Source of the DNA: an uncultured Gammaproteobacteria bacterium
Lineage (GTDB): Bacteria; Patescibacteriota; Patescibacteriia; UBA9934; CAZDDW01
NCBI GenBank assembly: GCA_965231015.1
Contig: OZ246408.1
Coordinates: 857,908 to 921,907, forward strand
Direction: 5' to 3'
Length of the DNA stretch: 64,000 nucleotides
Shown: one piece after another, positions 1 through 32,105 of the stretch
Layout of the letters: every line of letters begins with the position of its first letter
Position numbering within the stretch: position 1 is the stretch's first letter
Translations under genes and position numbers: made by a program
The notes under the pieces: model-generated
The model's input: the letters and a program-made list of their open reading frames with translations, nothing else
What the model was told of the DNA's origin: nothing
Databases searched by the model: none

Positions 1-644
1 TTATTGAATGGGAGAAAGAACGTTTTTAGCCCCTTCAACTCCGTTGTCATGTATATCAAATCCGTGTCTACAGCAAAATGAGCCAAGCATCGTTTGAACC
101 GTAGCAAGGGCTCTTTTGGATCTCGGTCAACTCGATATTGTTGCACGGCATTTTTAACGGTCTGACCGGTTAATTGATTTTTGAGTTCAACTGTAAAAAT
201 TGGCAGACCATTCAAAAACAAAACAATGTCAATAGAATTCTCATTCTGATCACTATAATGAACCTGACGCATAACACTAAAGATGTTTGCGTCATACAGT
301 CGCTGGCTTTCCGGATTCATACCGGAGTTTGGCTTGAAGTAGGCCAAGTCAATTTTTTGTCCATGATCGGAAAATCCGTTCCGCAACACATCCAAGGTTC
401 CACGTTCTCGAATCTCTTTATCTAAACGATTGAAAACTTTATCATTGATCTGGTCCCCGTGGATTTCCAGGAGGCGTCCATATTTTTCTGATTGTGTATT
501 TTCAATGAATTCTAAAACCAGTTCCGGATCCATACAGACATTCTTCATGTATGCACTCGCCGGCCGAGTTTGATACCCATTTTCCTCCGTGAGGAACTCC
601 TCAATAAATTCCTCAAACCCAATTTCTTTGATATTAGTAGTCAT
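1..644 (-). CDS. hsdR: Type I restriction enzyme R subunit (HsdR), N-terminal ~214 aa only; ORF runs open off the window start
   Basis: ATG at 644 (rc), reading frame open to position 1 with no stop; PD-(D/E)xK-like segment IDIVLFLNGLPIFTVELKN and HsdR-typical TFFLPFN motif; start overlaps stop of upstream ORF (ATGA-type coupling). Confidence 0.65.
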   Translation of the reverse strand, partial: MTTNIKEIGFEEFIEEFLTEENGYQTRPASAYMKNVCMDPELVLEFIENTQSEKYGRLLEIHGDQINDKVFNRLDKEIRERGTLDVLRNGFSDHGQKIDLAYFKPNSGMNPESQRLYDANIFSVMRQVHYSDQNENSIDIVLFLNGLPIFTVELKNQLTGQTVKNAVQQYRVDRDPKEPLLRFKRCLAHFAVDTDLIYMTTELKGLKTFFLPFN

Positions 645-646
645 AA

Positions 647-1363
647 TTATTTCTCATCCATCCAAGTAAAGTCTTGGTTTTGACATCTGATAGCTTTTTC
701 TGGACAATGAGCAGTTAATACTTCTAAGGATTGTTCTTCAAGTTTTTGTAGTTCACGATATTGTTTGTATTTACCTTCACCAATTCTAGTGTCTCCCACT
801 AACTCCTTTGGCATAATCGACAAATCGATCCATTTTGTCATAAGACTCAGAGCGATTAAGTCATAACGCAGTTGAGCTAATCGCTTCTTTAAAAATCGCT
901 CTTGTACTTCTTGGTTGTTGTGTTGCAAACCAAATTTATCATATTTTTCAATTTGTTCAATATCTAGCACAATTGTACTGATTTGGCTTTGCTCTTCAAT
1001 GGTATAAAATAAATCTAAATATTGACCACTTGCTAGAATGCGCTTTAAGTTTGGTGCGTTGTAAATTTTGCTTAGATATTTTGGAAAAGGTTTGAAGCCC
1101 TTTGTCGCTTCTTTGAGATCTGACATTACTTGTCCTAGATTAACAATATCTTCAAGGCTTGCAAAATATAGAGTTCTGATTTCAACTTTGATCACTTCTT
1201 TTAATCTGTGCCATTGTATCCGTTTTCGATTCCAGCTAATCCAATAAGTAACAACTGAGATAAATGCTGTGGCTGCAGCAATCCCAAAAGAAGCAATAGT
1301 CGCCCATTGTGTTACTAATTGAATTGTATCAACGGTTTCTTGGGCCATATTATTCCACAACAA
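647..1363 (-). CDS. hypothetical membrane-anchored protein (238 aa) embedded between hsdS and hsdR
   Basis: ORF with one predicted N-terminal TM helix (WATIASFGIAAATAFISVVTYWISW) then ~190-aa soluble domain; start overlaps hsdS 3' end by 14 nt, stop abuts hsdR start; no recognisable family. Confidence 0.55.
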   Translation of the reverse strand: MLWNNMAQETVDTIQLVTQWATIASFGIAAATAFISVVTYWISWNRKRIQWHRLKEVIKVEIRTLYFASLEDIVNLGQVMSDLKEATKGFKPFPKYLSKIYNAPNLKRILASGQYLDLFYTIEEQSQISTIVLDIEQIEKYDKFGLQHNNQEVQERFLKKRLAQLRYDLIALSLMTKWIDLSIMPKELVGDTRIGEGKYKQYRELQKLEEQSLEVLTAHCPEKAIRCQNQDFTWMDEK

Positions 1364-2708
1364 TCTTCCCAGTCACCGCGTGCGAAATCAGCGACGAGCG
1401 GTATTCTTGAATTAACCTGATCGACTTTTGGATTTTTTTGATAGCTCTATCAATCTCCAATGTTTTCTTATCTAAAAAATATGCAATGTTTTTTTGAATA
1501 GACGTACTGGGTACAGGTATTGATTCCGTAAAATATGATTTGACATCTAGATTCTGAATACCAGTTGTCTGCTTTATGAACTTTTTATTGACTCCTTTAA
1601 CGTACATAGCTCTATTGAGATATGTAAAGTACTTTGAGTCGACAGAATCATTTAATCGTATAGTTTCAATGAAATTTGAATTTACTGCGGTGTTGTTCAA
1701 ATCAAACTGGACAATTCTGCCAACTGGTGTCTTTTCTCCACCTCCAGACTTCTCAAGTAATAGATCACCAAGCTGCAGTTTTTTTGAGCTAAGATGATTC
1801 CTCGCTACATCTCGGAAAGTGTAACCCTCAGGCTTTAATCTAAGATTTGTATAAACAAAGTCAGCAACTCGGACACATAATGTTCCAGTTTCTTCAGTCG
1901 CTTCACCATCACCCCATGTTCCACCAAAGTGAGTGCTAATGAAATCCTTTTGCCTTTGGACATCCCACCCCTCTGGCATCTCGCCAATCCATTCAACACC
2001 CGAATCTTTCATCTTCACATTCGGATCCAGGCCTTTTGTAACAGCTTGCGTAATCAAAGCCGCGCGTTTTTCTTTCAGAAGCTCGATCTGCTTCTTTTTC
2101 TTTTTCTCCACCTCATCAATCACGGCCGTTTTTTCATCAAGAAAATCTGCAATGCGTTTTTGTTGATCTGCTGATGGAAGCAGAACGCCGAGTCGTTCAA
2201 AATCATGTCGTTTTACTTGAAGTGAATTTGGTCGAACCCCATAAAGTAGGCTGGTATATTTTTGAACATACTCATATGAACGTAATAAATAGTGAGCGAA
2301 ACGACTCTCGATCTTATTACTTAAATAGTAACTCTGATAGGCCGGGCTAACGTATCCGTCAAGGGCTGAAACTCCTAGTCCTTTAAAGTTCAACCACATA
2401 GTATTAACGACAAGTTGACCCTTATGAACAATGCGATAGTTACTATTATCTTCTGAGACTAATTGACCGTCATTTGTTGTCACATTCCTGGGCTCAACTC
2501 CTCGATACCCTGATACAGATAACGCAAGCTCAAAATCAGGGTGATCTTTAACGCGTTCATCACTTGCCCACATGACAAATTTTAATGGTTTAAAAATCCA
2601 GTCATTTGGAATATGCACAATCCATTCAACACCTGAATTTTTCATCTCCTTTTTGTCTCGTAATGTGTATTTCATATTTATTGCCACAAATTTACAAACC
2701 AATTCCAA
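1350..2708 (-). CDS. hsdS: Type I restriction-modification specificity subunit HsdS (two target-recognition domains)
   Basis: Duplicated TRD lead-in motifs GVEWIVHIPNDW / GVEWIGEMPEGW, conserved central and C-terminal coiled-coil repeats (LDEKTAVIDEVEKKKKKQIELLKEKRAALITQAVTGKL / YFLDKKTLEIDRAIKKIQKSIRLIQEYRSSLISHAVTGKI); alternative internal starts at 2675/2645 possible. Confidence 0.85.
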   Translation of the reverse strand: MELVCKFVAINMKYTLRDKKEMKNSGVEWIVHIPNDWIFKPLKFVMWASDERVKDHPDFELALSVSGYRGVEPRNVTTNDGQLVSEDNSNYRIVHKGQLVVNTMWLNFKGLGVSALDGYVSPAYQSYYLSNKIESRFAHYLLRSYEYVQKYTSLLYGVRPNSLQVKRHDFERLGVLLPSADQQKRIADFLDEKTAVIDEVEKKKKKQIELLKEKRAALITQAVTKGLDPNVKMKDSGVEWIGEMPEGWDVQRQKDFISTHFGGTWGDGEATEETGTLCVRVADFVYTNLRLKPEGYTFRDVARNHLSSKKLQLGDLLLEKSGGGEKTPVGRIVQFDLNNTAVNSNFIETIRLNDSVDSKYFTYLNRAMYVKGVNKKFIKQTTGIQNLDVKSYFTESIPVPSTSIQKNIAYFLDKKTLEIDRAIKKIQKSIRLIQEYRSSLISHAVTGKIVVE

Positions 2709-3070
2709 TCAAGACCGAAAAACGCCAGTAAACCAATGAGCAGGGCCAGGATAGCTAGAGCTGCTTGGAAATCATTTTTAACCCAACGCCAAAGACGATA
2801 TTTAATTTTGAGCTCACTTCTACCTGCATTTGTTATTCCAACGTAAATCCCTGGAATTCCGCCACCGCTTCTACCGTTCTGTTTAATTATGAAATTTTGT
2901 GACTCCAATGTATCACAGGCATGAGCGACACGGGATTTGAAATAGTCAACATGTTTTCTTACATCTTCTTTATACCCTCTATCAAGCAAGGCTTTTTTTA
3001 GATTAGAAACAGTAATCTTCATATCATCTCGTACTAACACCTTTAGAATGTCCTTGTGTAATTTTTCCAT
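2678..3070 (-). CDS. small protein (130 aa): N-terminal winged-helix-like region, C-terminal TM helix; embedded between hsdM and hsdS
   Basis: ORF begins 2 nt after hsdM stop and overlaps hsdS start by ~31 nt; C-terminal hydrophobic stretch AALAILALLIGLLAFFGL; no family recognised. Confidence 0.45.
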   Translation of the reverse strand: MEKLHKDILKVLVRDDMKITVSNLKKALLDRGYKEDVRKHVDYFKSRVAHACDTLESQNFIIKQNGRSGGGIPGIYVGITNAGRSELKIKYRLWRWVKNDFQAALAILALLIGLLAFFGLDWNWFVNLWQ

Positions 3071-3072: not shown

Positions 3073-5112
3073 CTACATCTGATCAATCAATGACTTAAGT
3101 TCTGATTCGACCTGCTCGATATCTTTCTGAATTTCATCCAGTGATCGTGGGGCTTCATACTTGTAGAAGAATCGTGTTACCGGGATTTCGTAGCCAACTT
3201 TTCCGACTTTATTATCCTTGTGATCCTTTTTACTTTCATCAATCCATGCATCAGCAACATAAGGTTTTACTTCTTCTTCAAAATAGTCGTTAACATCTTG
3301 ATTCAGTGGAACATTTTCCGTATCGCGTAAACTCGAATCAGCTTGCTGCTTGTCTTGGCTATCCAAAAAGACATCCGCTGTTTCATCATGCTCGGAAAGA
3401 GCATTAACGATTGCCTTTTTAAGCGGAGCGGGTAATTTGAGATCGTTATTTTTCCATATACCCTCAAGCAATTTTATGTATTCATTTCCATTCTTAAATA
3501 ACTCAGTGGACATCTCGCTAAGTGCTGAAATGATGCTGTCTTGAAGCTTAATTCCGGCTTCAATTTCTTCATTGCCTTTATCGCCTTTTTTCTTCGAAGT
3601 AGCCAGCTTTTGAAAAACCTGCTCCTCTTTTAGCGCTTCAACACGTTCTGGAGTTACCTGAAAATTGAGCCTTAGTGGGCGTTCGATTGTAATCTGACGG
3701 TATCCAAAACCTTCGTTGTTGAAGATTTTTGAGTATTCATTCTCTTCAAACTTTGAATATAGCTCAACAATCTTTTTTCTGTCTTCTTCGGTGATTTCAT
3801 TGCGTTTGTTGCCAAGACTTTTGCGCATCTTTTCAGACATGCCTCGAGCGTCAATGATTTGCACCTTGCCTTTGCGCTCGTCAGGCTTTCGGTTTGTTAT
3901 AAACCAGAGATAGGTTGGAATACCTGTATTGAAGAAAAGTTGATCTGGCAAGGCAATGATAGTCTCTAGCCAATCGTTCTCTAGAATCCAGCGTCGGATT
4001 TCACTTTCTCCGCTACCCGCATCTCCAGTGAAGAGTGGTGACCCGTTGAAGACAATGCCCAGACGCGATCCGCCTTCGTGCTCGGGTCGCATTTTTGAAA
4101 TGAGGTGTTGTAGGAATAACAACTGACCATCAGAAACCCGCGGTGTACCAGCTCCAAAACGACCGGCGTATCCACGTTCTTCTTCACGCTCGATTACTTG
4201 CTTGTCTTTTTTCCAATCTATACCAAACGGAGGGTTGGTGAGCATGTAGTCAAAGTCTTTACTGAAAAACTGATCATTAGAGAGGGTGGAGGCGATGGAA
4301 TGATCCTTTTCTCCGCCTTTGATATTATTCGGATCTTCACCCTTAATCAGCATATCCGCCTTACACATGGCATAGGTAACCGGGTTCAATTCTTGACCGT
4401 AAAGATAAATGTCAGCGTTACTTTTGATATCTTTCTTAATATGATCTTTGGCAACCGAGAGCATTCCACCAGTACCACAGGCACAGTCGTAAATGGTTTT
4501 AATCAGATGTTCTTTTTGAAGTTTTTTTTGGTCAGGGGCGAAGAGGACTTCAACCATGACTTTAATAACATCTCGTGGAGTGTAATGTTCTCCCGCGGTT
4601 TCGTTAGATTGTTCGGCAAACTTTCGAATAAGCTCTTCGAAGATTGAACCCATCTCATGATTGTCCACTCGGTCCGGGTGAAGATCAACCTTGTTGATGA
4701 TTTTGATAATTTCGTAAAGCAGATTACCACCTTCTAGGCGATCTAGCTGGCGGTCAAAGTCAAACTTCTCAATGATGTCAGTGATGTTTTCGCTAAACTT
4801 GCTCAGATAATCACGAAAGTTTTGTGCAATACCCGATGGATCCTCAAGTAAATTATTAAAATCATATTCTGAGATATTATAAAATCCAACTCCACTGGTT
4901 GCTTTCAGGATTGGGTCAAGATCATTAATTTCTCCACTGAGCTCGTTGTATTGCTCAAGTACAGCCTTCTTGGTTGGTGCAAGCAACAAATCCAAACGTC
5001 GAATCACGACCAAAGGGAGAATTACATCTTGGTACTCGTGCTGCTTCCAGCCACCTCGAAGAATGTCAGCGATATTCCAAATTAATTGTGCTTTTTCTTT
5101 GAAGTTGTTCAT
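3073..5112 (-). CDS. hsdM: Type I R-M N6-adenine DNA methyltransferase subunit HsdM (679 aa, with C-terminal extension)
   Basis: SAM-binding motif I DCACGTGGML and catalytic motif IV NPPFG; HsdM-N-like N-terminus; followed by hsdS and hsdR. Confidence 0.9.
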   Translation of the reverse strand: MNNFKEKAQLIWNIADILRGGWKQHEYQDVILPLVVIRRLDLLLAPTKKAVLEQYNELSGEINDLDPILKATSGVGFYNISEYDFNNLLEDPSGIAQNFRDYLSKFSENITDIIEKFDFDRQLDRLEGGNLLYEIIKIINKVDLHPDRVDNHEMGSIFEELIRKFAEQSNETAGEHYTPRDVIKVMVEVLFAPDQKKLQKEHLIKTIYDCACGTGGMLSVAKDHIKKDIKSNADIYLYGQELNPVTYAMCKADMLIKGEDPNNIKGGEKDHSIASTLSNDQFFSKDFDYMLTNPPFGIDWKKDKQVIEREEERGYAGRFGAGTPRVSDGQLLFLQHLISKMRPEHEGGSRLGIVFNGSPLFTGDAGSGESEIRRWILENDWLETIIALPDQLFFNTGIPTYLWFITNRKPDERKGKVQIIDARGMSEKMRKSLGNKRNEITEEDRKKIVELYSKFEENEYSKIFNNEGFGYRQITIERPLRLNFQVTPERVEALKEEQVFQKLATSKKKGDKGNEEIEAGIKLQDSIISALSEMSTELFKNGNEYIKLLEGIWKNNDLKLPAPLKKAIVNALSEHDETADVFLDSQDKQQADSSLRDTENVPLNQDVNDYFEEEVKPYVADAWIDESKKDHKDNKVGKVGYEIPVTRFFYKYEAPRSLDEIQKDIEQVESELKSLIDQM

Positions 5113-5963
5113 ATAAGTGGTTTGAATAGTTGTGTGTACTCATGGAGATGAAAAACTCTATGTCTATCTTTTCCGGTCACCTCTTTGAGAACGTTAAGTT
5201 TTACAAGCTCCTTAAACAATTCATTGATCGTCTGGTAAGTACTTTTCTCTTGATAGCTATTCTGAAGTTCCTTGATGGTAAACTGCGGCTTTTCCATCAT
5301 ACATGGTAACAGACCCTGAAAAAGATCTTTGCGTTGTTTGGCAAAGCCATTCGTCCGCTCCTTATATTTTCCATCTAGTGTCCTGATGTTGTGAAGTAGA
5401 CTGATGATTAATTCTGTCTGTTCCGCAACTTGTTGATTTGGGTCATGGGTGTTGTTCTGCATCCGTGAAAATATAAGAATGGGGGCCAAGAGAACACTTC
5501 GTTCGACAAGATACATGTTGGCAATCAAATCTGCCACTAGTTCATTGCCTTTATGAAATGGCGATATTTGTAAAAAATTCTGATATAACTGGATAGCGCT
5601 TTCGAAAATATTATCTTTCGAGTTGTGCTTGACTAACAACCTTTGCAGTGCCTTCTGTTTATCTTGGGAACGCCATTCACCCGGCTGGTAATTATATGTC
5701 TCTTTTTGCGAAAAGATCTGACGATGCAGTGAAGCGATGGCGTCTAAAAAATCTTCTCTGACCTTCGTCGGTTTAATAAAGGCAGTGATAAACCGCGATT
5801 CAGTCACTGGTAGCTGACCATGATTCTCATCAATTATTTGCTGTGTAAAAGCTAATTTAGCCAAAGAATAGCGCATTAATAGCGCAAATTGCGATGATTC
5901 TATCCATCCATTGATCTTCCCGATGTTGAGAAGTGCTAATTTTTCTGGCGCAATATGTTGCAT
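5109..5963 (-). CDS. Fic/Doc-family-like protein with degenerate active-site motif and C-terminal wHTH-like domain; first gene of the R-M operon
   Basis: Segment ISPFHKGNELVADLIANMYL aligns to the Fic HPFx[DE]GNGRxxR motif but with H->S, D->K, G->E, R->L substitutions; stop overlaps hsdM start (5109-5112). Confidence 0.45.
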   Translation of the reverse strand: MQHIAPEKLALLNIGKINGWIESSQFALLMRYSLAKLAFTQQIIDENHGQLPVTESRFITAFIKPTKVREDFLDAIASLHRQIFSQKETYNYQPGEWRSQDKQKALQRLLVKHNSKDNIFESAIQLYQNFLQISPFHKGNELVADLIANMYLVERSVLLAPILIFSRMQNNTHDPNQQVAEQTELIISLLHNIRTLDGKYKERTNGFAKQRKDLFQGLLPCMMEKPQFTIKELQNSYQEKSTYQTINELFKELVKLNVLKEVTGKDRHRVFHLHEYTQLFKPLI

Positions 5964-5977
5964 ATCTTATTCAGAGT

Positions 5978-6006
5978 TTGACAAAGATTACTGATTGTGA
6001 TAATAC
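5978..6006 (+). promoter_or_regulatory. sigma70-like promoter for the divergent DUF2130-like gene (TTGACA-N17-TAATAC), sharing its -10 hexamer region with the minus-strand promoter
   Basis: TTGACA at 5978-5983, 17-nt spacer, TAATAC at 6001-6006; overlaps the minus-strand -10 at 6000-6005. Confidence 0.45.
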
Positions 6007-6029
6007 CAAAAGGCTAATTAATTGTCAAG
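6000..6029 (-). promoter_or_regulatory. sigma70-like promoter for the Fic-hsdM-hsdS-hsdR operon (TTGACA-N17-TATTAT on minus strand)
   Basis: rc of 6024-6029 = TTGACA, 17-nt spacer, rc of 6000-6005 = TATTAT; ~28 nt upstream of Fic-like ATG at 5963. Confidence 0.5.
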
Positions 6030-6045
6030 TAAATACTCAAATAAT

Positions 6046-7263
6046 ATGACCGAACAAACTATAATTTGCCCTGAGTGTAGCGCAGAAATCCCCTTAAATA
6101 AAGCGCTTACAGGAAAAATTCATGCTGAGCTTCGCAAGGAAATGAACGCAGAGCTTCAGGACAAGAGGACTGAGCTTGCCCAAAAAGAAACACAATTTGC
6201 TAAACAGCAGGAGGATTTGCAAAAAACAATTGATGCCCGTGTAGCAAAGGAGCGAGCGGAAATTGCCAAGCAAGCGAAAGATGAGGCTACAAAAGTGCTT
6301 GATCTTCAACTCAAGGATCTCCAAAAAGCCAATGAAGAAAAGGGACAGGAGTTGAAAGCTATGAAGGAGGCCGAGTTAGAGCTTCGTAGGCAAAAACGTG
6401 AAATTGAAGCGCGAGAAAAAAACCTCCAGCTCGAGTTTGAACGCAAAATGGATACTGAACGAGAAAAAATTGCTGAAGATGTGAGAAAAGCTGCTGCAGA
6501 AGAGAGTCGGCTTAAGGTTGCAGAAAAGGACAAACAGATTGCCCAAATGAACAAAACGATTGTGGATCTAAAACGAAAAGGTGAACAAGGCTCCATGCAA
6601 ATCCAAGGTGACGTGCAAGAAGATGGCCTGAAGATTCAGCTGCAGAATATTTTCCCTATTGATACCATCGAGGATGTCCCGACTGGAATTAAAGGAGCTG
6701 ACTTGGTGCATCGCATACGAACCGACCTTGGTCAAGAAGCTGGTACGATTCTCTGGGAATCAAAAAATACTAGGGCATGGAATGGTGGCTGGGTGAAAAA
6801 ACTCAAGGATGACCAGGCGTCTGTTAAGGCTGATGCATGTATCTTAGTTTCTCAAGCATTACCTGATGGGATCGATGATTTTGGATATGTCGACGGAGTA
6901 TGGGTGTGCAAATATCGCTCAGCTGCGTCTTTGGCGTCTGTGCTACGCCACAGCGTTGTTGAAATCTCACAAGTTAAGCAGTCGTTAGTGGGTAAGGATC
7001 AAAAAATGGAGCTTCTTTATAACTATTTATCCGGAAGCGAATTCCGAAACCGTGTAGAAAACATCGTTTCTGCATTCACAGGCATGCAGTCGGATCTTGA
7101 AACCGAAAAGCGTTCCATACAGCGCACATGGAAGAAGCGTGAAAAAGAAATTGAACGTGTAATCACTAATACGTCTGGGATGTATGGAGACCTTCAAGGT
7201 CTCATTGGTGCTTCGCTTAAAACAATCCGGTCTCTCGAACTATCAAGTGGGGATGAAGATTAA
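6046..7263 (+). CDS. coiled-coil protein with N-terminal CxxC and C-terminal PD-(D/E)xK-like domain (DUF2130-like)
   Basis: ORF track start is TTG at 6022; first ATG at 6046 (MTEQTIICPECSAEIPL); ~180-aa K/E/Q-rich coiled coil; C-terminal GADLVHRI...ILWESKNT resembles D...ExK nuclease motif. Confidence 0.5.
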   Translation: MTEQTIICPECSAEIPLNKALTGKIHAELRKEMNAELQDKRTELAQKETQFAKQQEDLQKTIDARVAKERAEIAKQAKDEATKVLDLQLKDLQKANEEKGQELKAMKEAELELRRQKREIEAREKNLQLEFERKMDTEREKIAEDVRKAAAEESRLKVAEKDKQIAQMNKTIVDLKRKGEQGSMQIQGDVQEDGLKIQLQNIFPIDTIEDVPTGIKGADLVHRIRTDLGQEAGTILWESKNTRAWNGGWVKKLKDDQASVKADACILVSQALPDGIDDFGYVDGVWVCKYRSAASLASVLRHSVVEISQVKQSLVGKDQKMELLYNYLSGSEFRNRVENIVSAFTGMQSDLETEKRSIQRTWKKREKEIERVITNTSGMYGDLQGLIGASLKTIRSLELSSGDED

Positions 7264-7358: not shown

Positions 7359-7862
7359 ATGATGGAGCAAGCTGAACAACTGGTGCGCGAGCGGATTACG
7401 GGCACGCGCAAAGGCATGGACAAGCCGGCCTGCACGCATTCGTTCAATGTGCGGGATATTCTGGCGAGGCACGGGTTTTCCGGTGAGGTGCAACTGGCCG
7501 GGCTGTTGCACGATGTGATCGAGGACGGGGGCGTGAGTTTGGACGAGCTAACAGCGCTCGGGTTTGGCGATCGGGTGGTAGAGCTCGTTAATCTGGCTTC
7601 GCACGACCTCGCGGTCGAAGGCTCGTACGAGCGCTGGGTCAAAATGATCGCGCGGCTGATTGACGCGACTGACGCCGAGGCTTGGGCCATCAAGCTCGCT
7701 GACATCCGCGACAACCTGCGCGACAGCCATGCTATGCCGAACAAAGAACAACAACTCTTGCTCCGCGAAGTCAAGGTCCGGCTAATGCTGGAGCTAACTA
7801 AAAATTTCAATGACCTGTCCGGTCTGCGCCAAGAACTGGCAAACGAGCTTAAGGCAATCTAG
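7359..7862 (+). CDS. small HD-domain hydrolase of RelA/SpoT type (small alarmone hydrolase-like)
   Basis: HSFNV...LAGLLHDVIEDGGVSLDELTALGFGDRVVELVNLASHD matches the SpoT/RelA HD hydrolase core (H...LLHDvIED...FG..V..LV). Confidence 0.55.
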   Translation: MMEQAEQLVRERITGTRKGMDKPACTHSFNVRDILARHGFSGEVQLAGLLHDVIEDGGVSLDELTALGFGDRVVELVNLASHDLAVEGSYERWVKMIARLIDATDAEAWAIKLADIRDNLRDSHAMPNKEQQLLLREVKVRLMLELTKNFNDLSGLRQELANELKAI

Positions 7863-7896
7863 TTTTTACTATTCGTTCGAATTAGAGCAAAAACAA

Positions 7897-7916
7897 AGAA
7901 GCCCCGAAAGGCTTCT
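7897..7916. terminator. 7-bp hairpin (AGAAGCC-CCGAAA-GGCTTCT) between convergent genes
   Basis: Perfect inverted repeat; no clear U-tract. Confidence 0.3.
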
Positions 7917-7936
7917 GAAGTGAGGATAAAGAGTGG

Positions 7937-8287
7937 TCAAGGATCAGTAGGACAAAGTGCGAGATTGCGATTCTGGAGCTCACCACTCTGTTCGGCTTTG
8001 AAGGTGGCAGTGTAGGTGCCGTCGGCATTGGGAGTAAGTTCGGTCAGGAAGTGGCGCTTGTAGGCCTCAGGGTGTCCGACCGCCAGCTCCTTGGTGAAGC
8101 GGGTGTTGTTCATGAACATGCGCACGTTTTCGATGCACTTCACATGTTCGGTGTCGATCACGCACTCGGCCCATTCGAGCCGGTTCTGGCTTTGGCAGTG
8201 CAGGACCGGAAGTCCGATCATGATGCCGATAATCAGTAGCCCGCCGACCAGGCTGACCCAGATATTTTCTTGCTCGCGCTTTTCCAT
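7937..8287 (-). CDS. small membrane-anchored protein (start taken at MEKREQ..., N-terminal TM helix)
   Basis: ORF in GC-rich island; hydrophobic IWVSLVGGLLIIGIMIGLPVL; longer ORF-track start at 8365 less likely. Confidence 0.4.
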   Translation of the reverse strand: MEKREQENIWVSLVGGLLIIGIMIGLPVLHCQSQNRLEWAECVIDTEHVKCIENVRMFMNNTRFTKELAVGHPEAYKRHFLTELTPNADGTYTATFKAEQSGELQNRNLALCPTDP

Positions 8288-8485
8288 GACTACTCCTTCG
8301 AAAGATCGTGCCTCAAACCTAGCAGAAAAATGAACACTGGTCAAGCCCATAAATTGACAAACCAAGCTTAAATGCTATAGTTATTTTTGAGAGGAGAAAA
8401 CAGCGCTTCGCGGTGCCTTACACATACTGATCGCAGTGGTCATATTACTTCATTTCCTTCAAAATCGACGACTGGTTGGACTAAC

Positions 8486-8773
8486 ATGAACAAGAACGCC
8501 TATTTTAGCAGCCTGATCCGCGAGCACGGCTTTAGCCGAGTGGCACACCAGATCGTGTACGAGCACGAGCGGCCGAGCAGTTCCCGCGCTGACTACTGGC
8601 GCCTTGAATTCACTGCTCAGACTGAGGACGATATGTACGTGCAAGGCCAGTTCACATCCGTGGGCTCGTCTGCCGGACAGCCAGCGCAAATCACCGGTCA
8701 GGTCACGAACCTACAGCCGATTTCAGCACAACAGTACCAACGGCTGGTGGCTGAATACGGCGGATTGGACTAG
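8486..8773 (+). CDS. hypothetical protein (start at MNKNAYF)
   Basis: ORF in GC-rich island, no family recognised. Confidence 0.3.
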   Translation: MNKNAYFSSLIREHGFSRVAHQIVYEHERPSSSRADYWRLEFTAQTEDDMYVQGQFTSVGSSAGQPAQITGQVTNLQPISAQQYQRLVAEYGGLD

Positions 8774-8781
8774 GGGGAAAG

Positions 8782-9231
8782 ATGAACCTGTGGCTCAAAC
8801 TGCAACACCTGTTCAGCCGGCGCTTCCAGGCGCGTTGCGGACACCGGACTTACCGGCGTGATCGCATCCAGGCCTATGGCTACAGCACCATCGTCACGCT
8901 CAGGACCGAGCACGAAACCACTCCCTACTGCCACCGCTGCCTGGAAGCCATGACCGCGCTGTGCCCGATCTGCCATTCGTCAATCTTCATTGGTGAACCG
9001 GTGCGGATCGTGGTGCCGCTGCGCGAAGACTTCGAAGTTCAGGAGGGCATGCGCACCTTTGACATTGATCAAAACCACATCAAAATGGTGGCCTGCCTGC
9101 GTTGCGCGGATACCATTGCGCTGATCAGCGGCATCTGGGTACCGCCAGGGGTGGTCCAGCTGATCGAATCCCCGCTCGAGCATGCTTGGCGCACTGGACA
9201 GCCCACAGTGGCCGAAATCTACTACCACTAA
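8782..9231 (+). CDS. Cys-rich hypothetical protein (CHRC...CPIC zinc-ribbon-like)
   Basis: ORF with CxxC x2 spaced ~12 aa; GC-rich island. Confidence 0.4.
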   Translation: MNLWLKLQHLFSRRFQARCGHRTYRRDRIQAYGYSTIVTLRTEHETTPYCHRCLEAMTALCPICHSSIFIGEPVRIVVPLREDFEVQEGMRTFDIDQNHIKMVACLRCADTIALISGIWVPPGVVQLIESPLEHAWRTGQPTVAEIYYH

Positions 9232-9314
9232 CTCCCGAGCCCTTCCTGAAGGGCTCGTTTCTTTTTGACAAATTAAAAGCGACCCGCATGATAACAGGTC
9301 GCGATTACGTTGTG

Positions 9315-9740
9315 TTAGCGACAAAGGTAGTAGTCTAAATCCCAGTCATCAACCGGGTTACCACAGGTGTCTTGTTCCATGACACACTCCCAGTCGTTAG
9401 TGAGCAACTTGGAACGGTGATGTCGGGGATGATCTTCGAAATAACTGATCTCTTCGTCAGTCAAATTAAGCCGATCGCGCAGTTTATCGCGCTCGAACAG
9501 AATCGGGTCCGTTGATGAACATTCTCGGAACATCGAACTGCACAAGATGCACTTGCACATCTGTTCGTGTTCGTAGTGTAAGTCTGCGAGCAGATGTATC
9601 ACCTTCTGGTCATGCTTGTCTGGATTCGGTCCGCGCTCATACCACAGAAATATTCCCACGAATGGATCGATCAAGATTAGCAAATACACCCCAATGATTA
9701 GACAAGAAATTATTAGATCTTTCCAATCTTGACGACGCAC
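9315..9740 (-). CDS. small membrane-anchored protein, tandem paralog A
   Basis: N-terminal TM helix; shares ERDKLRDRLNLTDEEISYFED / ...DLDYYLCR with adjacent ORF (QRDQLRDRLQFTDVEYEEFVQ / ...SLDYEYFAR). Confidence 0.5.
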   Translation of the reverse strand: MRRQDWKDLIISCLIIGVYLLILIDPFVGIFLWYERGPNPDKHDQKVIHLLADLHYEHEQMCKCILCSSMFRECSSTDPILFERDKLRDRLNLTDEEISYFEDHPRHHRSKLLTNDWECVMEQDTCGNPVDDWDLDYYLCR

Positions 9741-9742
9741 AA

Positions 9743-10186
9743 CTACCTCGCGAAGTACTCGTAGTCCAGGCTACCGTCGGCCTTAGTGAAAGCCGGGGGC
9801 TTATCCGGACAATGCCAGCTGGCAAGCACCAACTGCTCGCGTGTGGAGTCAGCACGTTGCACGAACTCTTCATACTCGACGTCCGTGAACTGGAGCCGGT
9901 CGCGCAGCTGATCGCGTTGGGTCAAGGATTCGGCCGAAGTCGGAAGGTCTTCGAGGTCAGTACCGTAGTATTCGCAAGTACAGGCCAGGTAGAAGTTGTT
10001 GTGTACCTCGGCCAGCTCGTCGAGCACAGCCTGGTTATCCTCAGACAGTGGTGGTTGAGTCAGGCCGTGGATCAGACCAATCACCCCGCAGATCACGAAG
10101 ATGACAAAGATCCCACCGATGACGTACATTTCTTTACGCATACTCTCTCCCGGAAAAAGTTCTGAATTCAGCATAGCAAAAATCAC
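9743..10186 (-). CDS. small membrane-anchored protein, tandem paralog B
   Basis: Same architecture and conserved blocks as 9315..9740; 2-nt spacing between the two genes. Confidence 0.5.
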   Translation of the reverse strand: MIFAMLNSELFPGESMRKEMYVIGGIFVIFVICGVIGLIHGLTQPPLSEDNQAVLDELAEVHNNFYLACTCEYYGTDLEDLPTSAESLTQRDQLRDRLQFTDVEYEEFVQRADSTREQLVLASWHCPDKPPAFTKADGSLDYEYFAR

Positions 10187-10270
10187 GACTTTGTCAAGGT
10201 TATTTCCTTGACATCTATCACTCCCAGTGCTATACTACCGCCCGCGTTCATATCAACACGGGGAGAAAAC

Positions 10271-10438
10271 ATGAACGACCCGACAAACGAGATTCAAGAC
10301 GTACCGGCGGACGAACGTGTGTTCGTCTGCGACTGGGTACCAGGCAGTGCTCTGCGCATCTGCTTCGTGCCGCTCGAGCCTGACTCGCCCGAGCCCACAT
10401 CTTCGAACCCGGATCAGCAGACGGATCCCGAACTCTGA
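10271..10438 (+). CDS. small acidic hypothetical protein (55 aa)
   Basis: ATG at 10271 preceded by GGGGAGAAAAC RBS-like sequence. Confidence 0.3.
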   Translation: MNDPTNEIQDVPADERVFVCDWVPGSALRICFVPLEPDSPEPTSSNPDQQTDPEL

Positions 10439-10645
10439 ACCCCAACGCAAAACCGAGCCCACGACGAGCTCGGCCCGCCCGAGGAGTATGTGAACTAGGC
10501 ACGAACAACACACACTCAATCACCAGCCGGACCCGTCTTCAAGGGCCCGGCGCGTTTTTTTCTTTGTTAGATTAAAAACGAAATCCCCAAGGTGAATTCC
10601 TTGGGGGGGTGAGTTAGTCATCACGTATATAGTGGAAGAAAAGAC

Positions 10646-10942
10646 ATGAGTGGATGTAGCTCTGAAGAAAAGCGCGCCCTTTCGAGCAGCCTGGGTCGCT
10701 TTTTCCTGGCTGTTCTGATCGGCTATGGCAGTTGGCTGGCGCTCGCCTATATCACCGTCTTCTGGATCAAGCCCCAGAACCATCTTCCGGACGTTGCCAA
10801 CTACATCATCGGAGCCCTTTTCATGATTGCCCTAGTCTTCTTCCCCCGTGTATCCCTTCGAATCTTCGGGATTACCAAGAAGATCCAACGCAATCCCTTC
10901 ACCACCGATGACTCCACAACCAAAAACCGAGCTAACGACTAG
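10646..10942 (+). CDS. small membrane protein (2 predicted TM helices)
   Basis: Hydrophobic segments FFLAVLIGYGSWLALAYITVFWI and IIGALFMIALVFFP. Confidence 0.4.
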   Translation: MSGCSSEEKRALSSSLGRFFLAVLIGYGSWLALAYITVFWIKPQNHLPDVANYIIGALFMIALVFFPRVSLRIFGITKKIQRNPFTTDDSTTKNRAND

Positions 10943-10990
10943 CTCGGTTCTATTCTGTAAATCCCGTGGATTGATTTATTACTGATTTTC

Positions 10991-12154
10991 TCAACTTTCA
11001 ACTGCTCCCAATACTTTTTCGATCACTGTATCGCTTGGATAACGCTTAAATAAAACTAGGGTTTCAGCATGATCCAAATTGAAATCTGGCTCATTTAAAA
11101 AAACTACCGAAGCCCGATTGTTCGAAAAATCAATCATGGCCACCTCGCCGCCGCTTTCTACATACTCTTTCAAAGACGTCATCATCTCTCCTTCGCTACC
11201 TCGGTATATCGGCCAAAAGTAAGCCACCCCATCCTTTTTTAACAACCGATCCATCTCCTCCCAATACACCTGAAACTCTTTACTTTTCATATTCGGAAAC
11301 ATGTGCGTGGACAACGACCAAGAAGCAACTAATCGATCAAATGATTCGTCTTCAAATGGTGTAGCCGGGAAAGCAGCTTTGACAAGATCAGCGTACTGAT
11401 ACTTTTTTAAGAACCGGTGCTCGGTGATCAGACGTCGGATTAAATCCTCTTGTTTTTCCTGACCAAACCCTTTATCGCGCAACGCCTCTTTCAAAACCGC
11501 CGGTTCAATTACCGTTTTGACCAAATGTGTGTCAGCAAAACTACGTTCCAGTTTAACTGCATCATACCAAAGTTCTCGCAAAGCATTACTTTCTTCAGCT
11601 TCTTCATCGACACGCCCTCTTAATTCAGCAATGGCATGACGTAAATCGCCCAAAATTGCCGTAGCCTCTGGATATTTTTCTAGATCTTGTGCGTCAGCAA
11701 TGTTGTGTATCTGTTCCAAGGTTTCTTCAATCTGATGAACCAGGTCTGGAAATGCATCTTCCAAATATTTTGCCTTACTCTCCATCTGTTGACCCTTCCA
11801 TTCTAAATTACTCTCCAAATGTTCCTCGGTATAAACAAACTCCGCTTCATCACCTGACTCATAATCTAAATTGGTCACCCCTTCCCGATCCAAAGTCTGC
11901 CATGGATCCCCAATATTCAAAACTTTTCCTGATTCTGGGAACAATTCTTTTACCGGAACTAAAGACTCATTCTCGTAATCTTGTTCTACTCGTCCGGTCA
12001 AAGCCTTTTCCTTGGCATCAACCGCCACAACCTTATCTGCAATTTCTTTTTTTATCTGTTCGAAGCGCTCACGCTCAGCTTCAAAAGTCTGATCTTGTTG
12101 ATCGAGTTCAGTATCATGTTTTGAACGAACCCGACCCATGCCTTCAATATACAT
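10991..12154 (-). CDS. hypothetical protein with methyltransferase-like C-terminal region
   Basis: C-terminal FDRLVASWSLSTHMF ... LLKKDGVAYFWPIY resembles class I SAM-MTase motifs II/III, but no clear GxGxG motif I. Confidence 0.45.
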   Translation of the reverse strand: MYIEGMGRVRSKHDTELDQQDQTFEAERERFEQIKKEIADKVVAVDAKEKALTGRVEQDYENESLVPVKELFPESGKVLNIGDPWQTLDREGVTNLDYESGDEAEFVYTEEHLESNLEWKGQQMESKAKYLEDAFPDLVHQIEETLEQIHNIADAQDLEKYPEATAILGDLRHAIAELRGRVDEEAEESNALRELWYDAVKLERSFADTHLVKTVIEPAVLKEALRDKGFGQEKQEDLIRRLITEHRFLKKYQYADLVKAAFPATPFEDESFDRLVASWSLSTHMFPNMKSKEFQVYWEEMDRLLKKDGVAYFWPIYRGSEGEMMTSLKEYVESGGEVAMIDFSNNRASVVFLNEPDFNLDHAETLVLFKRYPSDTVIEKVLGAVES

Positions 12155-29277: not shown

Positions 29278-29325
29278 TGACGTGGATCTCCCACGAGGGG
29301 AGATAATGTGAGGAGGGTTGGTAGT

Positions 29326-30609
29326 CTACTTGACCTGCTCGGTCTTGTAGACCGTGCAGGTCTTGTAGGTACCAGTGGCGTCCTTGCTGTTGCGAGCGCA
29401 ACGACGGTCAACGCCGTCCGGGCACTCGAAGAGCAAGATGTGGTGGTCCAACAACTGGTAGCTCTGGCAGGTGGTCGATTCCTGATCGACCAGCTCGGAG
29501 CTCGACGTGCACTCGTCGGCGTGAGCCGGCGGATTCTTGCTCCCGTAGTCCATGATCGGCACGAGGAGCGCGAAGGCCAGCACAGCTGCGGCCACCGCGG
29601 CCTTGGCCACGGTACGACCGACCTGACGCGGCTGGCGCGTCGACATGATCTCGGTGATCTCGGTCTCGTCGTAGGTGACGTCGTCGTCCGGGTCCAGGCT
29701 CTCGATGACGGGCTCGGTGGCGGCCAGGCGTGCCTGGGCCATCAAACCATCCTCGATCCCGTTCACTCGACCCTTGAGCGCGTCGTGTTCGTCAGTCTGG
29801 ATCCGGATGATCTCGCGAAGCTCCGCGAGGTCTCGCTCCGACATCTGTCGGACGAACTCGGCGATCATCTCGGTCTCTTCTGATCGCACCTCGGCCTCGG
29901 TTCGGACAGTTCCGGCCAGATCCGTGAGACGCTGATCGATCTGTGCGATCTGCCGCGAACGGTCGGCGCCGTGCTCGAACAGTCGCTTGATGTCGGCGTG
30001 ATGCTCGGCCGTACGGGTCTTGAGCCCCGTCACGTCGCGGCCGTGTCCGTCCACGCGGTTCGTCAGCTTCTCCGCATCAGCTCGGATCTCGGTCCGCTCT
30101 TTGTCGGCCCGGTTGATCTGCGTCACCATATGCCGGGTCAGATGAACGAACGCTCGCTGGCGCTCTGCCAGCTCGAGCCGCTGGCGTCGAGCCGTCCGTT
30201 GCTCGTCCTCGATCGCCTTGAGCTTGTTGTGCACCTTCAGGTTCAAGTTCCCGAGTTGTCTCTTGATCCCGGCCCGCTCGTCGTTGGCGATCTTCCGGCC
30301 GGTGAGGAGCTTGGCCAGCTCCTTACGGAACTCGTCGAAGTCCTGCCTGAGCTTGGGAACCTCGCGCCGCTCGATCTGCTTGATCCTGGCTTTCAGGGTC
30401 TTCTGCTTGCGCACGAGCAGATTCAACTCCTCGTCCACATCGAGCTCCAGCACGAGGTCGTCCAGCTCTTCACCAAGGTCGACATCATCCGCATCGTCCG
30501 GCTCGGCACCACAGAACTCGGGCACATCGATGTAGCTCTGACTGGCTCGTTCGGTCTCGCACCTGTTCAAGGTCTCGAGCCAATGAGCAGCCTGCTTATC
30601 ACTCGTCAT
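29326..30609 (-). CDS. coiled-coil protein with C-terminal TM anchor and Cys-rich extracytoplasmic tail (start at MTSDKQ, RBS GGGAGGAGGAA)
   Basis: Long E/R/K-rich heptad region, hydrophobic AAVAAAVLAFALLVPIM, terminal Cys cluster; G/C-ending codon bias. Confidence 0.5.
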   Translation of the reverse strand: MTSDKQAAHWLETLNRCETERASQSYIDVPEFCGAEPDDADDVDLGEELDDLVLELDVDEELNLLVRKQKTLKARIKQIERREVPKLRQDFDEFRKELAKLLTGRKIANDERAGIKRQLGNLNLKVHNKLKAIEDEQRTARRQRLELAERQRAFVHLTRHMVTQINRADKERTEIRADAEKLTNRVDGHGRDVTGLKTRTAEHHADIKRLFEHGADRSRQIAQIDQRLTDLAGTVRTEAEVRSEETEMIAEFVRQMSERDLAELREIIRIQTDEHDALKGRVNGIEDGLMAQARLAATEPVIESLDPDDDVTYDETEITEIMSTRQPRQVGRTVAKAAVAAAVLAFALLVPIMDYGSKNPPAHADECTSSSELVDQESTTCQSYQLLDHHILLFECPDGVDRRCARNSKDATGTYKTCTVYKTEQVK

Positions 30610-31938: not shown

Positions 31939-32105
31939 CTCTTCCTCCTTGCTATTTTGGGCCCTTTCGGGCTCCCGTTTTGGGGCCCGTACAGGGCGAA
32001 TCAAAGCGTCCGAGGGTGAAAAATTTCACCTGTTACGAACGACGTAATGTATCATATTTTAGCCAAAAAGTCAACCCCTAAAGGTTGTTTTTGGCCAAAA
32101 TATAA

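What the first reader, a model, noticed from the sequence alone, without database searches (positions are those of the whole stretch)
2678..3070. 130-aa wHTH-like + C-terminal TM protein wedged between hsdM and hsdS
It begins 2 nt after the hsdM stop and overlaps the hsdS start by ~31 nt. A DNA-binding-like N-terminus fused to a membrane anchor is unusual inside an R-M operon. It could be a controller-like (C-protein) element or a membrane localisation factor.
Basis: inference. Interest (0 to 1): 0.55.

Follow-up and report, generated by a model that had tools for sequence, protein, structure and literature searches.

The report
Membrane-anchored winged-helix gene inside restriction operon
A small gene between the methylase and specificity genes of a Type I restriction-modification operon is real and encodes a membrane-anchored PadR-like winged-helix protein from an unannotated family that recurs inside restriction operons, with its function still only inferred.

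Summary
The ORF at 2678-3070 (- strand, 130 aa) is a real gene. It is one of six tightly packed genes: Fic-like, hsdM, X, hsdS, ORF238, hsdR. An alignment-based AlphaFold model (pLDDT 88) shows a winged helix followed by one long helix ending in a C-terminal transmembrane segment. The closest folds are PadR subfamily-2 regulators. Pfam, NCBIfam, PADLOC and PHROGs do not recognise it. Exhaustive searches find only about 35 relatives (116-142 aa, same architecture). In 11 of 16 distinct contexts the gene sits just after the methyltransferase gene of a Type I system (hsdM-X-hsdS) or a Type III system (mod-X-res). Two other contexts place it just after an XRE-HTH or HTH-M78 (RmrA-like) gene. The reported 31-nt overlap with hsdS is an artefact; hsdS starts at ATG 2675. 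It is not a C protein: it lacks the XRE fold and has no operator upstream. Palindromes at related operon promoters track the Fic protein's own winged helix, not X. The winged helix evolves as fast as HsdS (33% identity), whereas the juxtamembrane and transmembrane helix is conserved (72%). My best inference, at about 0.3, is a membrane-acting effector or "guardian" linked to restriction-modification. A membrane tether and a membrane-tethered regulator remain open.

The parts
2678..3070 (-). Gene X: 130-aa tail-anchored PadR-like winged-helix protein (ATG 3070, TAA 2680-2678)
   Evidence: ORF; homologues align from residue 2; leave-one-out profile 69.5 bits; AF2 pLDDT 87.9
2831..3070 (-). X residues 1-80: winged helix (H1 2-14, H2 21-30, H3 43-57, beta-hairpin wing 61-79)
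   Evidence: AF2 model; Foldseek top hits PadR subfamily-2, E 5e-5, TM 0.65-0.74; family profile vs PDB sequences hits PadR-like proteins at E 1.3e-4; net charge +5
2771..2830 (-). X residues 81-100: basic, aromatic juxtamembrane helix (NAGRSELKIKYRLWRWVKND), equivalent to PadR helix alpha4 and to the family motif GYKEFDPWYKKFWNF
   Evidence: AF2 continuous helix 81-117; alignments; most conserved part of the family
2708..2770 (-). X residues 101-121: transmembrane segment (FQAALAILALLIGLLAFFGLD)
   Evidence: Kyte-Doolittle 19-residue mean up to 2.42; aligned with the conserved TM of all homologues
2681..2707 (-). X residues 122-130: Trp-rich extracytoplasmic tail (WNWFVNLWQ), absent from most homologues
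   Evidence: alignment
3073..5112 (-). hsdM, long-form Type I methyltransferase (679 aa)
   Evidence: Pfam HsdM_N + N6_Mtase; PADLOC MTase_I PDLC03029 E 4e-277
1350..2675 (-). hsdS (441 aa from ATG 2675)
   Evidence: Pfam Methylase_S; PADLOC Specificity_I E 4e-94; start fixed by N-terminal homology
5109..5963 (-). First gene of the operon: truncated Fic-like protein (284 aa) with a degenerate Fic motif and a retained C-terminal winged helix
   Evidence: Pfam Fic E 9e-6, PADLOC SoFic E 1e-14; alignment with 378-387-aa homologues
647..1348 (-). ORF238 (233 aa from ATG 1348): orphan protein with an N-terminal TM helix, cargo between hsdS and hsdR
   Evidence: ORF and hydropathy; only a self-hit in 5.8 billion proteins; no family in any library
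1..644 (-). 5' part of hsdR (ATG 644), which runs off the window's left end; full length is 983 aa in L001
   Evidence: translation; L001 gene table HSDR_N/ResIII/T1R_D3; junction
6000..6028 (-). Promoter-like site for the operon (TTGACA-17-TATTAT with TG, 11 of 12 matches), 36 nt upstream of the Fic-like ATG
   Evidence: sequence

Best explanation
SHOWN. X is a real gene. It is separated by only -4 to +2 nt from its neighbours in a six-gene Type I restriction-modification (R-M) operon: Fic-like, hsdM, X, hsdS, ORF238, hsdR. It encodes a tail-anchored protein with a cytoplasmic PadR-like winged helix and a long helix (PadR alpha4 equivalent) that runs into a single C-terminal transmembrane segment. 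It is the most divergent member of a small unannotated family. That family most often sits directly after the methyltransferase gene of ATP-dependent R-M systems (Type I hsdM-X-hsdS; Type III mod-X-res). Elsewhere it sits directly after an XRE-type HTH gene or an HTH-M78 (RmrA-like) gene. INFERRED, and the mechanism I commit to. X is a membrane-acting accessory effector of the R-M system, a 'guardian' in the sense of PrrC. The conserved juxtamembrane and TM helix would be the working part, oligomerising in the membrane and perturbing it. The fast-evolving winged helix would be the sensing or partner-binding part. The protein would be made together with, and held in check by, the product of the gene just upstream (methyltransferase core, or an XRE / HTH-M78 antitoxin-like protein). 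It would be released when that partner is disabled by a phage. It is not a C-protein-type transcriptional controller of the operon.
For: Real gene and architecture. Operon packing; promoter. Context: 8 distinct Type I loci with X downstream of hsdM (immediately after it in all but L006, where 3 small ORFs intervene) and upstream of hsdS, and 3 distinct Type III mod-X-res loci. X is kept at the M-S junction while the S-R junction carries different cargo in each operon. Function seems to reside in the membrane-proximal part. Within the same operons HsdM is 81%, HsdR 77% and Fic 66% identical, but the X winged helix is only 33% (like HsdS at 36%), while the X juxtamembrane and TM region is 72%. 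Family-wide the figures are 26% vs 57%. In the main clade the TM carries a one-sided Ser/Ala/Thr stripe (R 0.83, p<0.001 vs shuffles). Toxin-like pairing: X lies 6 nt after an HTH_3 + M78 protein matching PD-Lambda-2_B (E 1e-38) and RmrA (E 8e-14) in L002, and 6 nt after a 73-aa XRE protein in L020/L021. RosmerTA pairs such protease antitoxins with diverse toxins, one of which has a C-terminal membrane region and depolarises cells (PMC10440598). Precedent for effectors embedded in Type I operons that fire when restriction is inhibited: PrrC (PMC12707154).
Against: No toxicity, membrane or interaction data exist; every functional step is inference. The window protein is the family outlier. Its juxtamembrane and TM region is only about 24-29% identical to the others and it lacks the PWYKK motif. 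Its TM has no significant small-residue stripe (p 0.19). Its winged helix and juxtamembrane segment are strongly basic (+5 and +4), which fits nucleic-acid binding at least as well. TM conservation could reflect dimerisation of a PadR-like dimer rather than pore formation. Stable retention at the M-S junction looks more like an integral subunit than swappable guardian cargo. The two closest relatives of the window protein whose contexts could be read (P0002, P0004) are not in R-M loci. Context counts come from a small, non-random sample of contigs.
Confidence: 0.32

Rival explanations
1. Membrane tether or adaptor. X is a dimeric tail-anchored subunit that holds the methyltransferase core, or the DNA it works on, at the inner face of the membrane. 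Restriction would then act where foreign DNA enters.
For: X is packed within a few nt of the methyltransferase gene in both Type I and Type III operons and is stably retained at that junction across an operon lineage. It is tail-anchored with a cytoplasmic domain. The window protein has a very basic cytoplasmic part.
Against: The winged helix is far more variable (33%) than HsdM and HsdR (81% and 77%) in the same operons, which is unexpected for a domain docking on them. In most members it is neutral or acidic, so generic DNA binding is not conserved. HsdM and Mod belong to different methyltransferase families. The family also occurs without any R-M genes. Relatives of this hsdM subtype in other phyla have no such gene.
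Confidence: 0.2
2. Membrane-tethered PadR-type DNA-binding regulator. It would be either a functional analogue of a C protein timing hsdS/hsdR (or res) expression, or a membrane-stress sensor released or activated at the membrane, as proposed for HAAS-PadR pairs.
For: The fold, and weakly the sequence, are PadR-like, including the LT..G wing and the aromatic alpha4. The gene order M-X-(S)-R resembles M-C-R. Proteases recur nearby: M78 directly upstream in L002; trypsin-like in L006, L010, L014 and L028. Membrane-linked PadR signalling has a precedent (10.1101/2020.09.24.301986). The window protein is basic.
Against: Inverted repeats upstream of X are at chance level in 12 loci and none recurs between loci, and there is none upstream of the Type III mod genes apart from a terminator-like hairpin. 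The conserved promoter palindromes of related Type I operons are near-identical among loci whose X recognition helices differ (DQVQH, ANIFH, NEITH, QQINH), and they sort with the Fic wHTH instead. No basic residues are conserved in the wing, and most members are neutral or acidic. The conservation pattern is the reverse of that expected for a transcription factor.
Confidence: 0.2
3. Self-standing mobile-element gene, such as a superinfection-exclusion or addiction factor acting at the membrane, that merely lodges in a permissive insertion site of R-M operons and has no functional link to the enzyme.
For: The M-S and S-R junctions are insertion sites for unrelated cargo, both here and in other phyla. 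Five of 16 contexts are non-R-M, and at least two of those lie on integrative or defence islands. The R-M island has lower GC than its surroundings.
Against: 11 of 16 contexts are R-M, in two different R-M types and always in the same relative position, and X diverges along with the operon. The family is absent from 2.9 million viral contigs and from PHROGs.
Confidence: 0.12
4. Spurious ORF or decaying remnant with no function.
For: No hit in any curated library. A gene caller chose a different start.
Against: Homologues at 25-33% identity keep the same length, fold and position. The leave-one-out profile scores 69.5 bits. The AF2 model is confident. The codon-position GC pattern is coding-like and matches the neighbours. 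A near-identical copy is preserved in a second assembly.
Confidence: 0.02

Closest known systems
PadR-family regulators, subfamily 2 (LmrR, Listeria PadR 6abq/6abt, B. cereus 4esf, Rv3488)
   Same: About 110-aa layout: winged helix (H1-H2-H3-hairpin with an LT..G wing) followed by one long C-terminal helix rich in aromatic residues. Best structural matches have E 5e-5 to 1e-3 and TM 0.6-0.74. The family profile hits PadR-like PDB sequences at E 1e-4, including the post-wing W..W.F segment.
   Different: The C-terminal helix continues into a transmembrane segment. Pfam PadR is below threshold (best E 0.007 in 4 of 34 members; none for the window protein). No operator was found. The recognition helix is poorly conserved, and conservation is concentrated in the C-terminal helix.
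Controller (C) proteins of Type II R-M systems (e.g. C.PvuII, C.AhdI, C.Esp1396I)
   Same: A small helix-turn-helix-type protein encoded between the methyltransferase and restriction-determining genes of an R-M operon.
   Different: C proteins are soluble XRE/HTH_3-type dimers of roughly 80 aa that bind C-box palindromes upstream of their own gene (general knowledge). X has a winged-helix PadR-like fold and a membrane anchor, has no upstream palindrome, and sits in Type I and Type III systems.
R-M 'guardians' embedded in Type I operons: PrrC / RloC anticodon nucleases
   Same: An extra gene embedded inside a Type I R-M operon. The proposed logic is the same: latent while the R-M enzyme is intact, triggered when it is inhibited (PMC12707154).
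   Different: There is no sequence or fold relationship. PrrC is an ABC-ATPase-like anticodon nuclease located between hsdS and hsdR. X is a 130-aa membrane protein between hsdM and hsdS, and no trigger or activity is known.
Membrane-depolarising toxins paired with XRE / M78 antitoxins (RosmerTA RmrT_D5, PanT_D11)
   Same: A small protein with a C-terminal membrane segment encoded next to an HTH-M78 (RmrA-like) or XRE gene. This holds for family members in L002 and L020/L021. RmrT_D5 depolarises membranes (PMC10440598).
   Different: No detectable homology. The window copy has no such neighbour. Toxicity of X is untested.
HAAS-PadR membrane-linked signalling pairs, and ToxR/CadC-type membrane-bound transcription factors
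   Same: A winged-helix DNA-binding module functionally or physically tied to the membrane (10.1101/2020.09.24.301986).
   Different: In HAAS-PadR the wHTH is a separate soluble protein. ToxR and CadC have OmpR-type wHTH plus a periplasmic sensor domain. X has only 0-9 residues outside the membrane and no HAAS partner.

Membership tests
PadR family (Pfam PF03551), subfamily 2 | Winged helix-turn-helix fold, alpha1-alpha2-alpha3-beta-beta | tested here: met
   AF2 pLDDT 87.9 with H1, H2, H3 and hairpin. The top 29 Foldseek PDB hits are all PadR-type proteins (including LmrR and one archaeal putative regulator), and 31 of the 34 hits with E <= 0.001.
PadR family (Pfam PF03551), subfamily 2 | Sequence match to the family model above its curated threshold | tested here: not met
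   The window protein has no Pfam hit at E <= 1. Four of 34 family members hit PadR, best E 0.0068, sub-threshold. The profile against PDB sequences reaches only E 1.3e-4.
PadR family (Pfam PF03551), subfamily 2 | Single C-terminal helix mediating dimerisation | not testable with these tools
   The helix is present and aligns with PadR alpha4. No multimer prediction was available.
PadR family (Pfam PF03551), subfamily 2 | Binds a palindromic operator at a regulated promoter | tested here: not met
   Inverted repeats upstream of X occur at chance level with none shared between loci, and there is none at the window promoter. Palindromes in related operons do not co-vary with X. This is a sequence-level test only.
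R-M controller (C) proteins | XRE/HTH_3-type helix-turn-helix, soluble, roughly 80 aa | tested here: not met
   No HTH_3 hit. The fold is a PadR-like winged helix. It is 130 aa with a TM helix.
R-M controller (C) proteins | C-box palindromes immediately upstream of the C gene | tested here: not met
   Counts of 7-nt inverted repeats in the 200 nt upstream of X in 12 loci match shuffle expectation (0-2 observed vs 0.15-1.0 expected), and no repeat is shared between loci.
Type I restriction-modification operon | hsdM, hsdS and hsdR present in one transcription unit | tested here: met
   Pfam and PADLOC hits. The hsdR N-terminus is in the window and the full gene is in L001. Junction spacings are -4 to +2 nt.
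Tail-anchored membrane protein | Single hydrophobic TM segment near the C-terminus with no N-terminal signal sequence | tested here: met
   TM at aa 101-121 of 130, KD 2.4. The N-terminus is a folded polar winged helix. Homologues end 2-4 residues after the TM. Insertion itself is untested.
PrrC/RloC-type R-M guardian | ABC-ATPase-like N-domain plus anticodon-nuclease C-domain | tested here: not met
   No such domains in Pfam, NCBIfam or PADLOC. Only the operon-embedded position is shared.
RosmerTA toxin (RmrT) | Encoded next to an RmrA (HTH + M78 peptidase) antitoxin | tested here: inconclusive
   Met for family member P0011 in L002 (RmrA models E 8e-14; PD-Lambda-2_B E 1e-38). Not met in the window.
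RosmerTA toxin (RmrT) | Toxic when expressed alone and neutralised by the partner | not testable with these tools
   Requires an experiment.

The most novel reading that the evidence does not exclude
The X family is a new kind of restriction-modification guardian. It would be a tail-anchored 'sensor-pore' whose fast-evolving winged helix monitors the methyltransferase core, or a phage anti-restriction factor. Its conserved transmembrane helix would collapse the membrane potential when Type I or Type III restriction is disabled. This would be a backup abortive-infection layer, so far seen almost only in metagenomic contigs, the one named genome being a Candidatus Saccharibacteria MAG.
Probability: 0.25. 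Interest if true: 0.75.

Novelty: new variant of a known kind. Interest (0 to 1): 0.55.

Why it matters
Extra genes embedded in Type I restriction operons are a known source of second-line defences, but very few have been characterised (PrrC, RloC). This finding defines an unannotated protein family with a clear and testable architecture: a PadR-like winged helix fused to a tail anchor. Its position is recurrent, directly after the methyltransferase gene in two different classes of ATP-dependent restriction systems. One locus comes from a Candidatus Saccharibacteria genome, and several others sit among housekeeping genes on metagenomic contigs that look like small genomes. Defence biology in such organisms is largely unexplored. 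If the family links restriction enzymes to the membrane, as effector, tether or sensor, it would be a new accessory function for R-M systems. If it is only a passenger, it still marks the hsdM-hsdS junction as a cargo site. The work also shows that the operon's likely autoregulator is the Fic-like protein's own winged helix rather than this gene.

Tried and rejected
1. Curated libraries (Pfam, NCBIfam, PADLOC, PHROGs) gave nothing for X. The only hit was a chance-level CARF match, E 0.016.
2. The single-sequence AF2 model was unusable (pLDDT 51). It was replaced by an alignment-based model.
3. The word-indexed protein search with X alone found only a near-identical copy. The exhaustive HMMER search was needed.
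4. The search for related loci with the full alignment failed because no stretch was conserved enough. A closer subset worked, but its patterns cannot retrieve the divergent window branch.
5. The viral contig scan found no relatives.
6. C-box or operator search: no inverted repeats in the window promoter region and none above chance upstream of X in 12 loci. I considered that the palindromes found upstream of Fic in related operons might be X operators. I rejected this because X recognition helices do not co-vary with them, whereas the Fic wHTH does.
7. I looked for co-variation between X winged-helix identity and HsdS identity across operon pairs and found none (10 pairs; too few to be conclusive).
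8. I tested whether the Ser/Ala/Thr stripe of the family's TM helix is present in the window protein. It is not significant there.
9. I checked whether annotated relatives of this hsdM subtype on plasmids carry a similar small gene. They do not; hsdM and hsdS are adjacent or separated by other cargo.
10. ORF238, the other membrane protein in the operon, was tested as a possible conserved partner. It is an orphan.
11. The organism of the window could not be determined.
12. Literature searches found no description of this family or of a membrane-anchored PadR-like protein in R-M operons.
Full report
THE OBSERVATION

The - strand carries a 130-aa ORF at 2678-3070. Its ATG (3070-3068) lies 2 nt after the TAG of a 679-aa gene. 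That gene is a long-form Type I methyltransferase (Pfam HsdM_N + N6_Mtase; PADLOC MTase_I E 4e-277). The ORF's TAA (2680-2678) lies 2 nt before an ATG at 2675. That ATG opens a 441-aa specificity subunit (Pfam Methylase_S; PADLOC Specificity_I E 4e-94).

The ATG at 2675 gives MKYTLRDKKE..NSGVEW. This matches the MQTLKLTKKYE..DSGVEW N-termini of homologous HsdS proteins, and where hsdS directly follows the small gene in the related operons it also starts 1-2 nt after it. The overlap is therefore an artefact.

The whole unit reads, on the - strand:
- a promoter-like site (TTGACA-17-TATTAT, 6028-6000);
- a Fic-like gene (5963-5109);
- hsdM (5112-3073);
- X (3070-2678);
- hsdS (2675-1350);
- ORF238 (1348-647);
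- hsdR, which starts at 644 and runs off the window (983 aa in the near-identical locus L001).

Junction spacings are -4, +2, +2, +1 and +2 nt. This is one tightly packed transcription unit. It lies in a lower-GC island (36-43% against about 45% for most of the window).

IS IT A GENE?

Yes. A word-indexed search found only a 99%-identical copy. An exhaustive HMMER scan of 1.84 billion representatives found eight distant relatives (26-37% identity over the matched regions, about 25-32% in the full alignment; 121-139 aa) that align from residue 2. A profile search raised the family to about 35 clusters of 116-142 aa (alignment). A profile built without the window protein scores it 69.5 bits across residues 2-118. 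Alignment from residue 2 supports the ATG at 3070 rather than the downstream GTG that one gene caller chose. Pfam, NCBIfam, PADLOC and PHROGs do not recognise the protein.

WHAT THE PROTEIN IS

Hydropathy gives one transmembrane segment at residues 101-121, with a Kyte-Doolittle mean of 2.4. With the family alignment, AlphaFold2 gives a confident model (pLDDT 87.9). It has H1 at 2-14, H2 at 21-30, H3 at 43-57, a beta-hairpin wing at 61-79, and a single long helix at 81-117 that runs into the membrane segment.

Foldseek against the PDB returns almost only PadR-family subfamily-2 regulators, such as LmrR, Listeria 6abq/6abt and Brachyspira PadR (E 5e-5 to 1e-3, target TM 0.6-0.74). The family profile also hits PadR-like PDB sequences at E 1.3e-4. 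That alignment extends through the wing (LT..G) and the aromatic start of the C-terminal helix. The Pfam PadR model is reached only below threshold, by 4 of 34 members.

X therefore has the PadR subfamily-2 layout, but the C-terminal helix, which is the dimerisation helix in PadR, continues into a tail anchor. Most homologues end 2-4 residues after the membrane segment. The window protein has an extra Trp-rich 9-residue tail.

WHERE THE FAMILY OCCURS

I read 16 distinct genomic contexts.

- Eight are Type I operons of the same design: Fic, hsdM, X, (cargo), hsdS, (variable cargo), hsdR. X starts 2-5 nt after hsdM in seven of them. In L006, three small ORFs intervene and X directly abuts hsdS.
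- Three are Type III systems with the order mod, X, res. X overlaps mod by 4 nt or follows it by 6 nt.
- In L002, X follows by 6 nt an HTH_3 + M78 peptidase protein that matches PD-Lambda-2_B (E 1e-38) and RmrA (E 8e-14).
- In L020/L021, X follows a 73-aa XRE protein by 6 nt.
- The remaining three are an integrative element (L010), a site downstream of an HtrA-like protease (L028), and a short contig (L027).

No relative occurs in 2.9 million viral contigs. Among GTDB species representatives, the pattern-based scan found only two loci. One is from a Candidatus Saccharibacteria genome. That scan cannot retrieve divergent members such as the window protein. The window's own organism is undetermined. 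Its contig is at least 1.0 Mb and the window encodes ComEC, RNase Y, SecY, EF-Tu and EF-G. Relatives of this hsdM subtype in other phyla have no such gene between hsdM and hsdS, although that junction can carry other cargo.

TESTING THE CONTROLLER IDEA

The window promoter region has no inverted repeat. Counts of 7-nt inverted repeats in the 200 nt upstream of X in 12 loci match the shuffle expectation, and none recurs between loci.

Related Type I operons do carry striking palindromes on the promoter upstream of Fic:
- ACTTTTAAT-N13-ATTAAAAGT, with small variations, in L004, L006, L012 and L014, often in two copies;
- AGTTAAAGT-N10-ACTTTAACT in L011 and L013.

However, the X recognition helices of the four operons that share the first palindrome differ widely (DQVQH, ANIFH, NEITH, QQINH). 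The Fic protein's own C-terminal winged helix sorts with palindrome type. It reads TFPTA..A / KKDRIFYL in the first group and .KPTA..LV / .RNR.F.L in the second. The window, which lacks both palindromes, has TYQTINELF / DRHRVFHL. The Fic groups also follow overall similarity, so this does not prove that Fic binds the palindromes. It is clear evidence that X does not read them. X also lacks the XRE fold of C proteins. The C-protein interpretation is therefore not supported.

WHAT THE CONSERVATION PATTERN SAYS

Mean pairwise identities within the same set of operons, excluding the window, are as follows:

| Protein or region | Identity |
|---|---|
| HsdM | 81% |
| HsdR | 77% |
| Fic | 66% |
| HsdS | 36% |
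| X, overall | 48% |
| X winged helix | 33% |
| X juxtamembrane + transmembrane region | 72% |

Family-wide, the winged helix is 26% identical and the C-terminal region 57%. The most constrained part is therefore the membrane-proximal helix, with consensus GYKEFDPWYKKFWNFINDDFAKLLSLISIILSIIAT. In the main clade this helix carries a one-sided Ser/Ala/Thr stripe. The winged helix diverges as fast as the hypervariable specificity subunit. In most members it is neutral or acidic.

This pattern argues against a domain that docks on the conserved HsdM or HsdR, which weakens the tether model. It also argues against a sequence-specific regulator of a conserved operator. It fits a variable sensing or partner-binding domain fused to a conserved membrane module.

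MECHANISM

I commit to the following, at about 0.3 confidence. X is an R-M-linked membrane effector or 'guardian'. It would be made together with the product of the upstream gene and held in check by it. That product is the methyltransferase core in R-M loci, or an XRE / HTH-M78 antitoxin-like protein elsewhere. X would act through oligomerisation of its juxtamembrane and TM helix when that control is lost.

Two precedents support the logic:
- PrrC is embedded in a Type IC operon and is triggered when restriction is inhibited (PMC12707154).
- RosmerTA systems pair HTH-M78 antitoxins with diverse toxins, one of which has a C-terminal membrane region and depolarises cells (PMC10440598).

All functional steps are inference. 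The window protein is the family outlier. It has a basic winged helix (+5) and juxtamembrane segment (+4), lacks the PWYKK motif, and has no significant stripe in its TM. For this particular copy, a DNA-binding membrane-tethered role remains a serious rival. A precedent of a different build exists in the HAAS-PadR pairs (10.1101/2020.09.24.301986).

NOVELTY AND SCORE

The family is unannotated, and I found no description of it in the literature searched. It combines known parts: a PadR-like winged helix, a tail anchor, and an accessory gene embedded in an R-M operon. I therefore rate it a new variant of a known kind. The interest score is 0.55. The gene and its association with R-M systems are solid and testable, but the function is open.

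Noticed in passing
L004:4790-4850, L006:3465-3545, L012:3660-3745, L014:1465-1545, L011:3670-3705, L013:4015-4050 (upstream of the Fic genes); window 5964-6040 for comparison: Related Type I operons carry conserved palindromes over the promoter upstream of Fic. These are ACTTTTAAT-N13-ATTAAAAGT (with small variations, often two copies about 41 nt apart) or AGTTAAAGT-N10-ACTTTAACT. The palindrome type sorts with the sequence of the Fic protein's C-terminal winged helix, suggesting Fic autoregulates the operon. The window has neither palindrome, only a 7-nt inverted repeat TTGACAA..N36..TTGTCAA bracketing its promoter.
   Followed up: partly
window 5109-5963 (-): The Fic-like first gene is truncated (284 aa, against 377-387 aa in related operons, with no Fic_N). 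Its catalytic motif is degenerate: ISPFHKGNELVADL in place of IHPFxDGNGRxGRL. It keeps the C-terminal winged helix, so it is probably no longer an AMP-transferase.
   Followed up: partly
window 6022-7263 (+); L011:7398-8912: A DUF2130 gene lies divergently next to the operon in the window. A DUF2130 homologue (504 aa, E 8e-79) is embedded between X and hsdS in L011. DUF2130 therefore recurs with this R-M lineage.
   Followed up: no
window 647-1348 (-): ORF238 lies between hsdS and hsdR. It is an orphan with an N-terminal transmembrane helix and only a self-hit in 5.8 billion proteins. The same junction holds different cargo in each related operon: trypsin-like protease, AAA_15 ATPase, PDC-S54, or a pair of unknown genes.
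   Followed up: partly
window 7500-11000: A 50-56% GC block lies next to the 36-43% GC R-M operon. It contains an HD_4 gene and many short ORFs with no family, so the island appears composite.
   Followed up: no
window 29300-32000: This stretch has about 62% GC (window average about 45%). It has long overlapping ORFs on both strands (29326-30654 -, 29971-30696 +, 30721-31920 +, 30874-32004 -). None has a Pfam or NCBIfam match. It sits between the EF-Tu and EF-G genes.
   Followed up: partly
window 56132-56232 (-): tRNA-Arg(TCT) is called at 88 nt by ARAGORN and 101 nt by Rfam. That is unusually long for a tRNA-Arg and may reflect an insertion or intron.
   Followed up: no
L002:8368-15529: The X homologue in L002 is convergent with, and overlaps by 17 nt, a retron-type reverse transcriptase (PADLOC RT_VII-A2, E 2e-76). 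The same island also carries a second RVT_1 reverse-transcriptase gene adjacent to a bAvd gene (a DGR-like pair) and two integrases.
   Followed up: no
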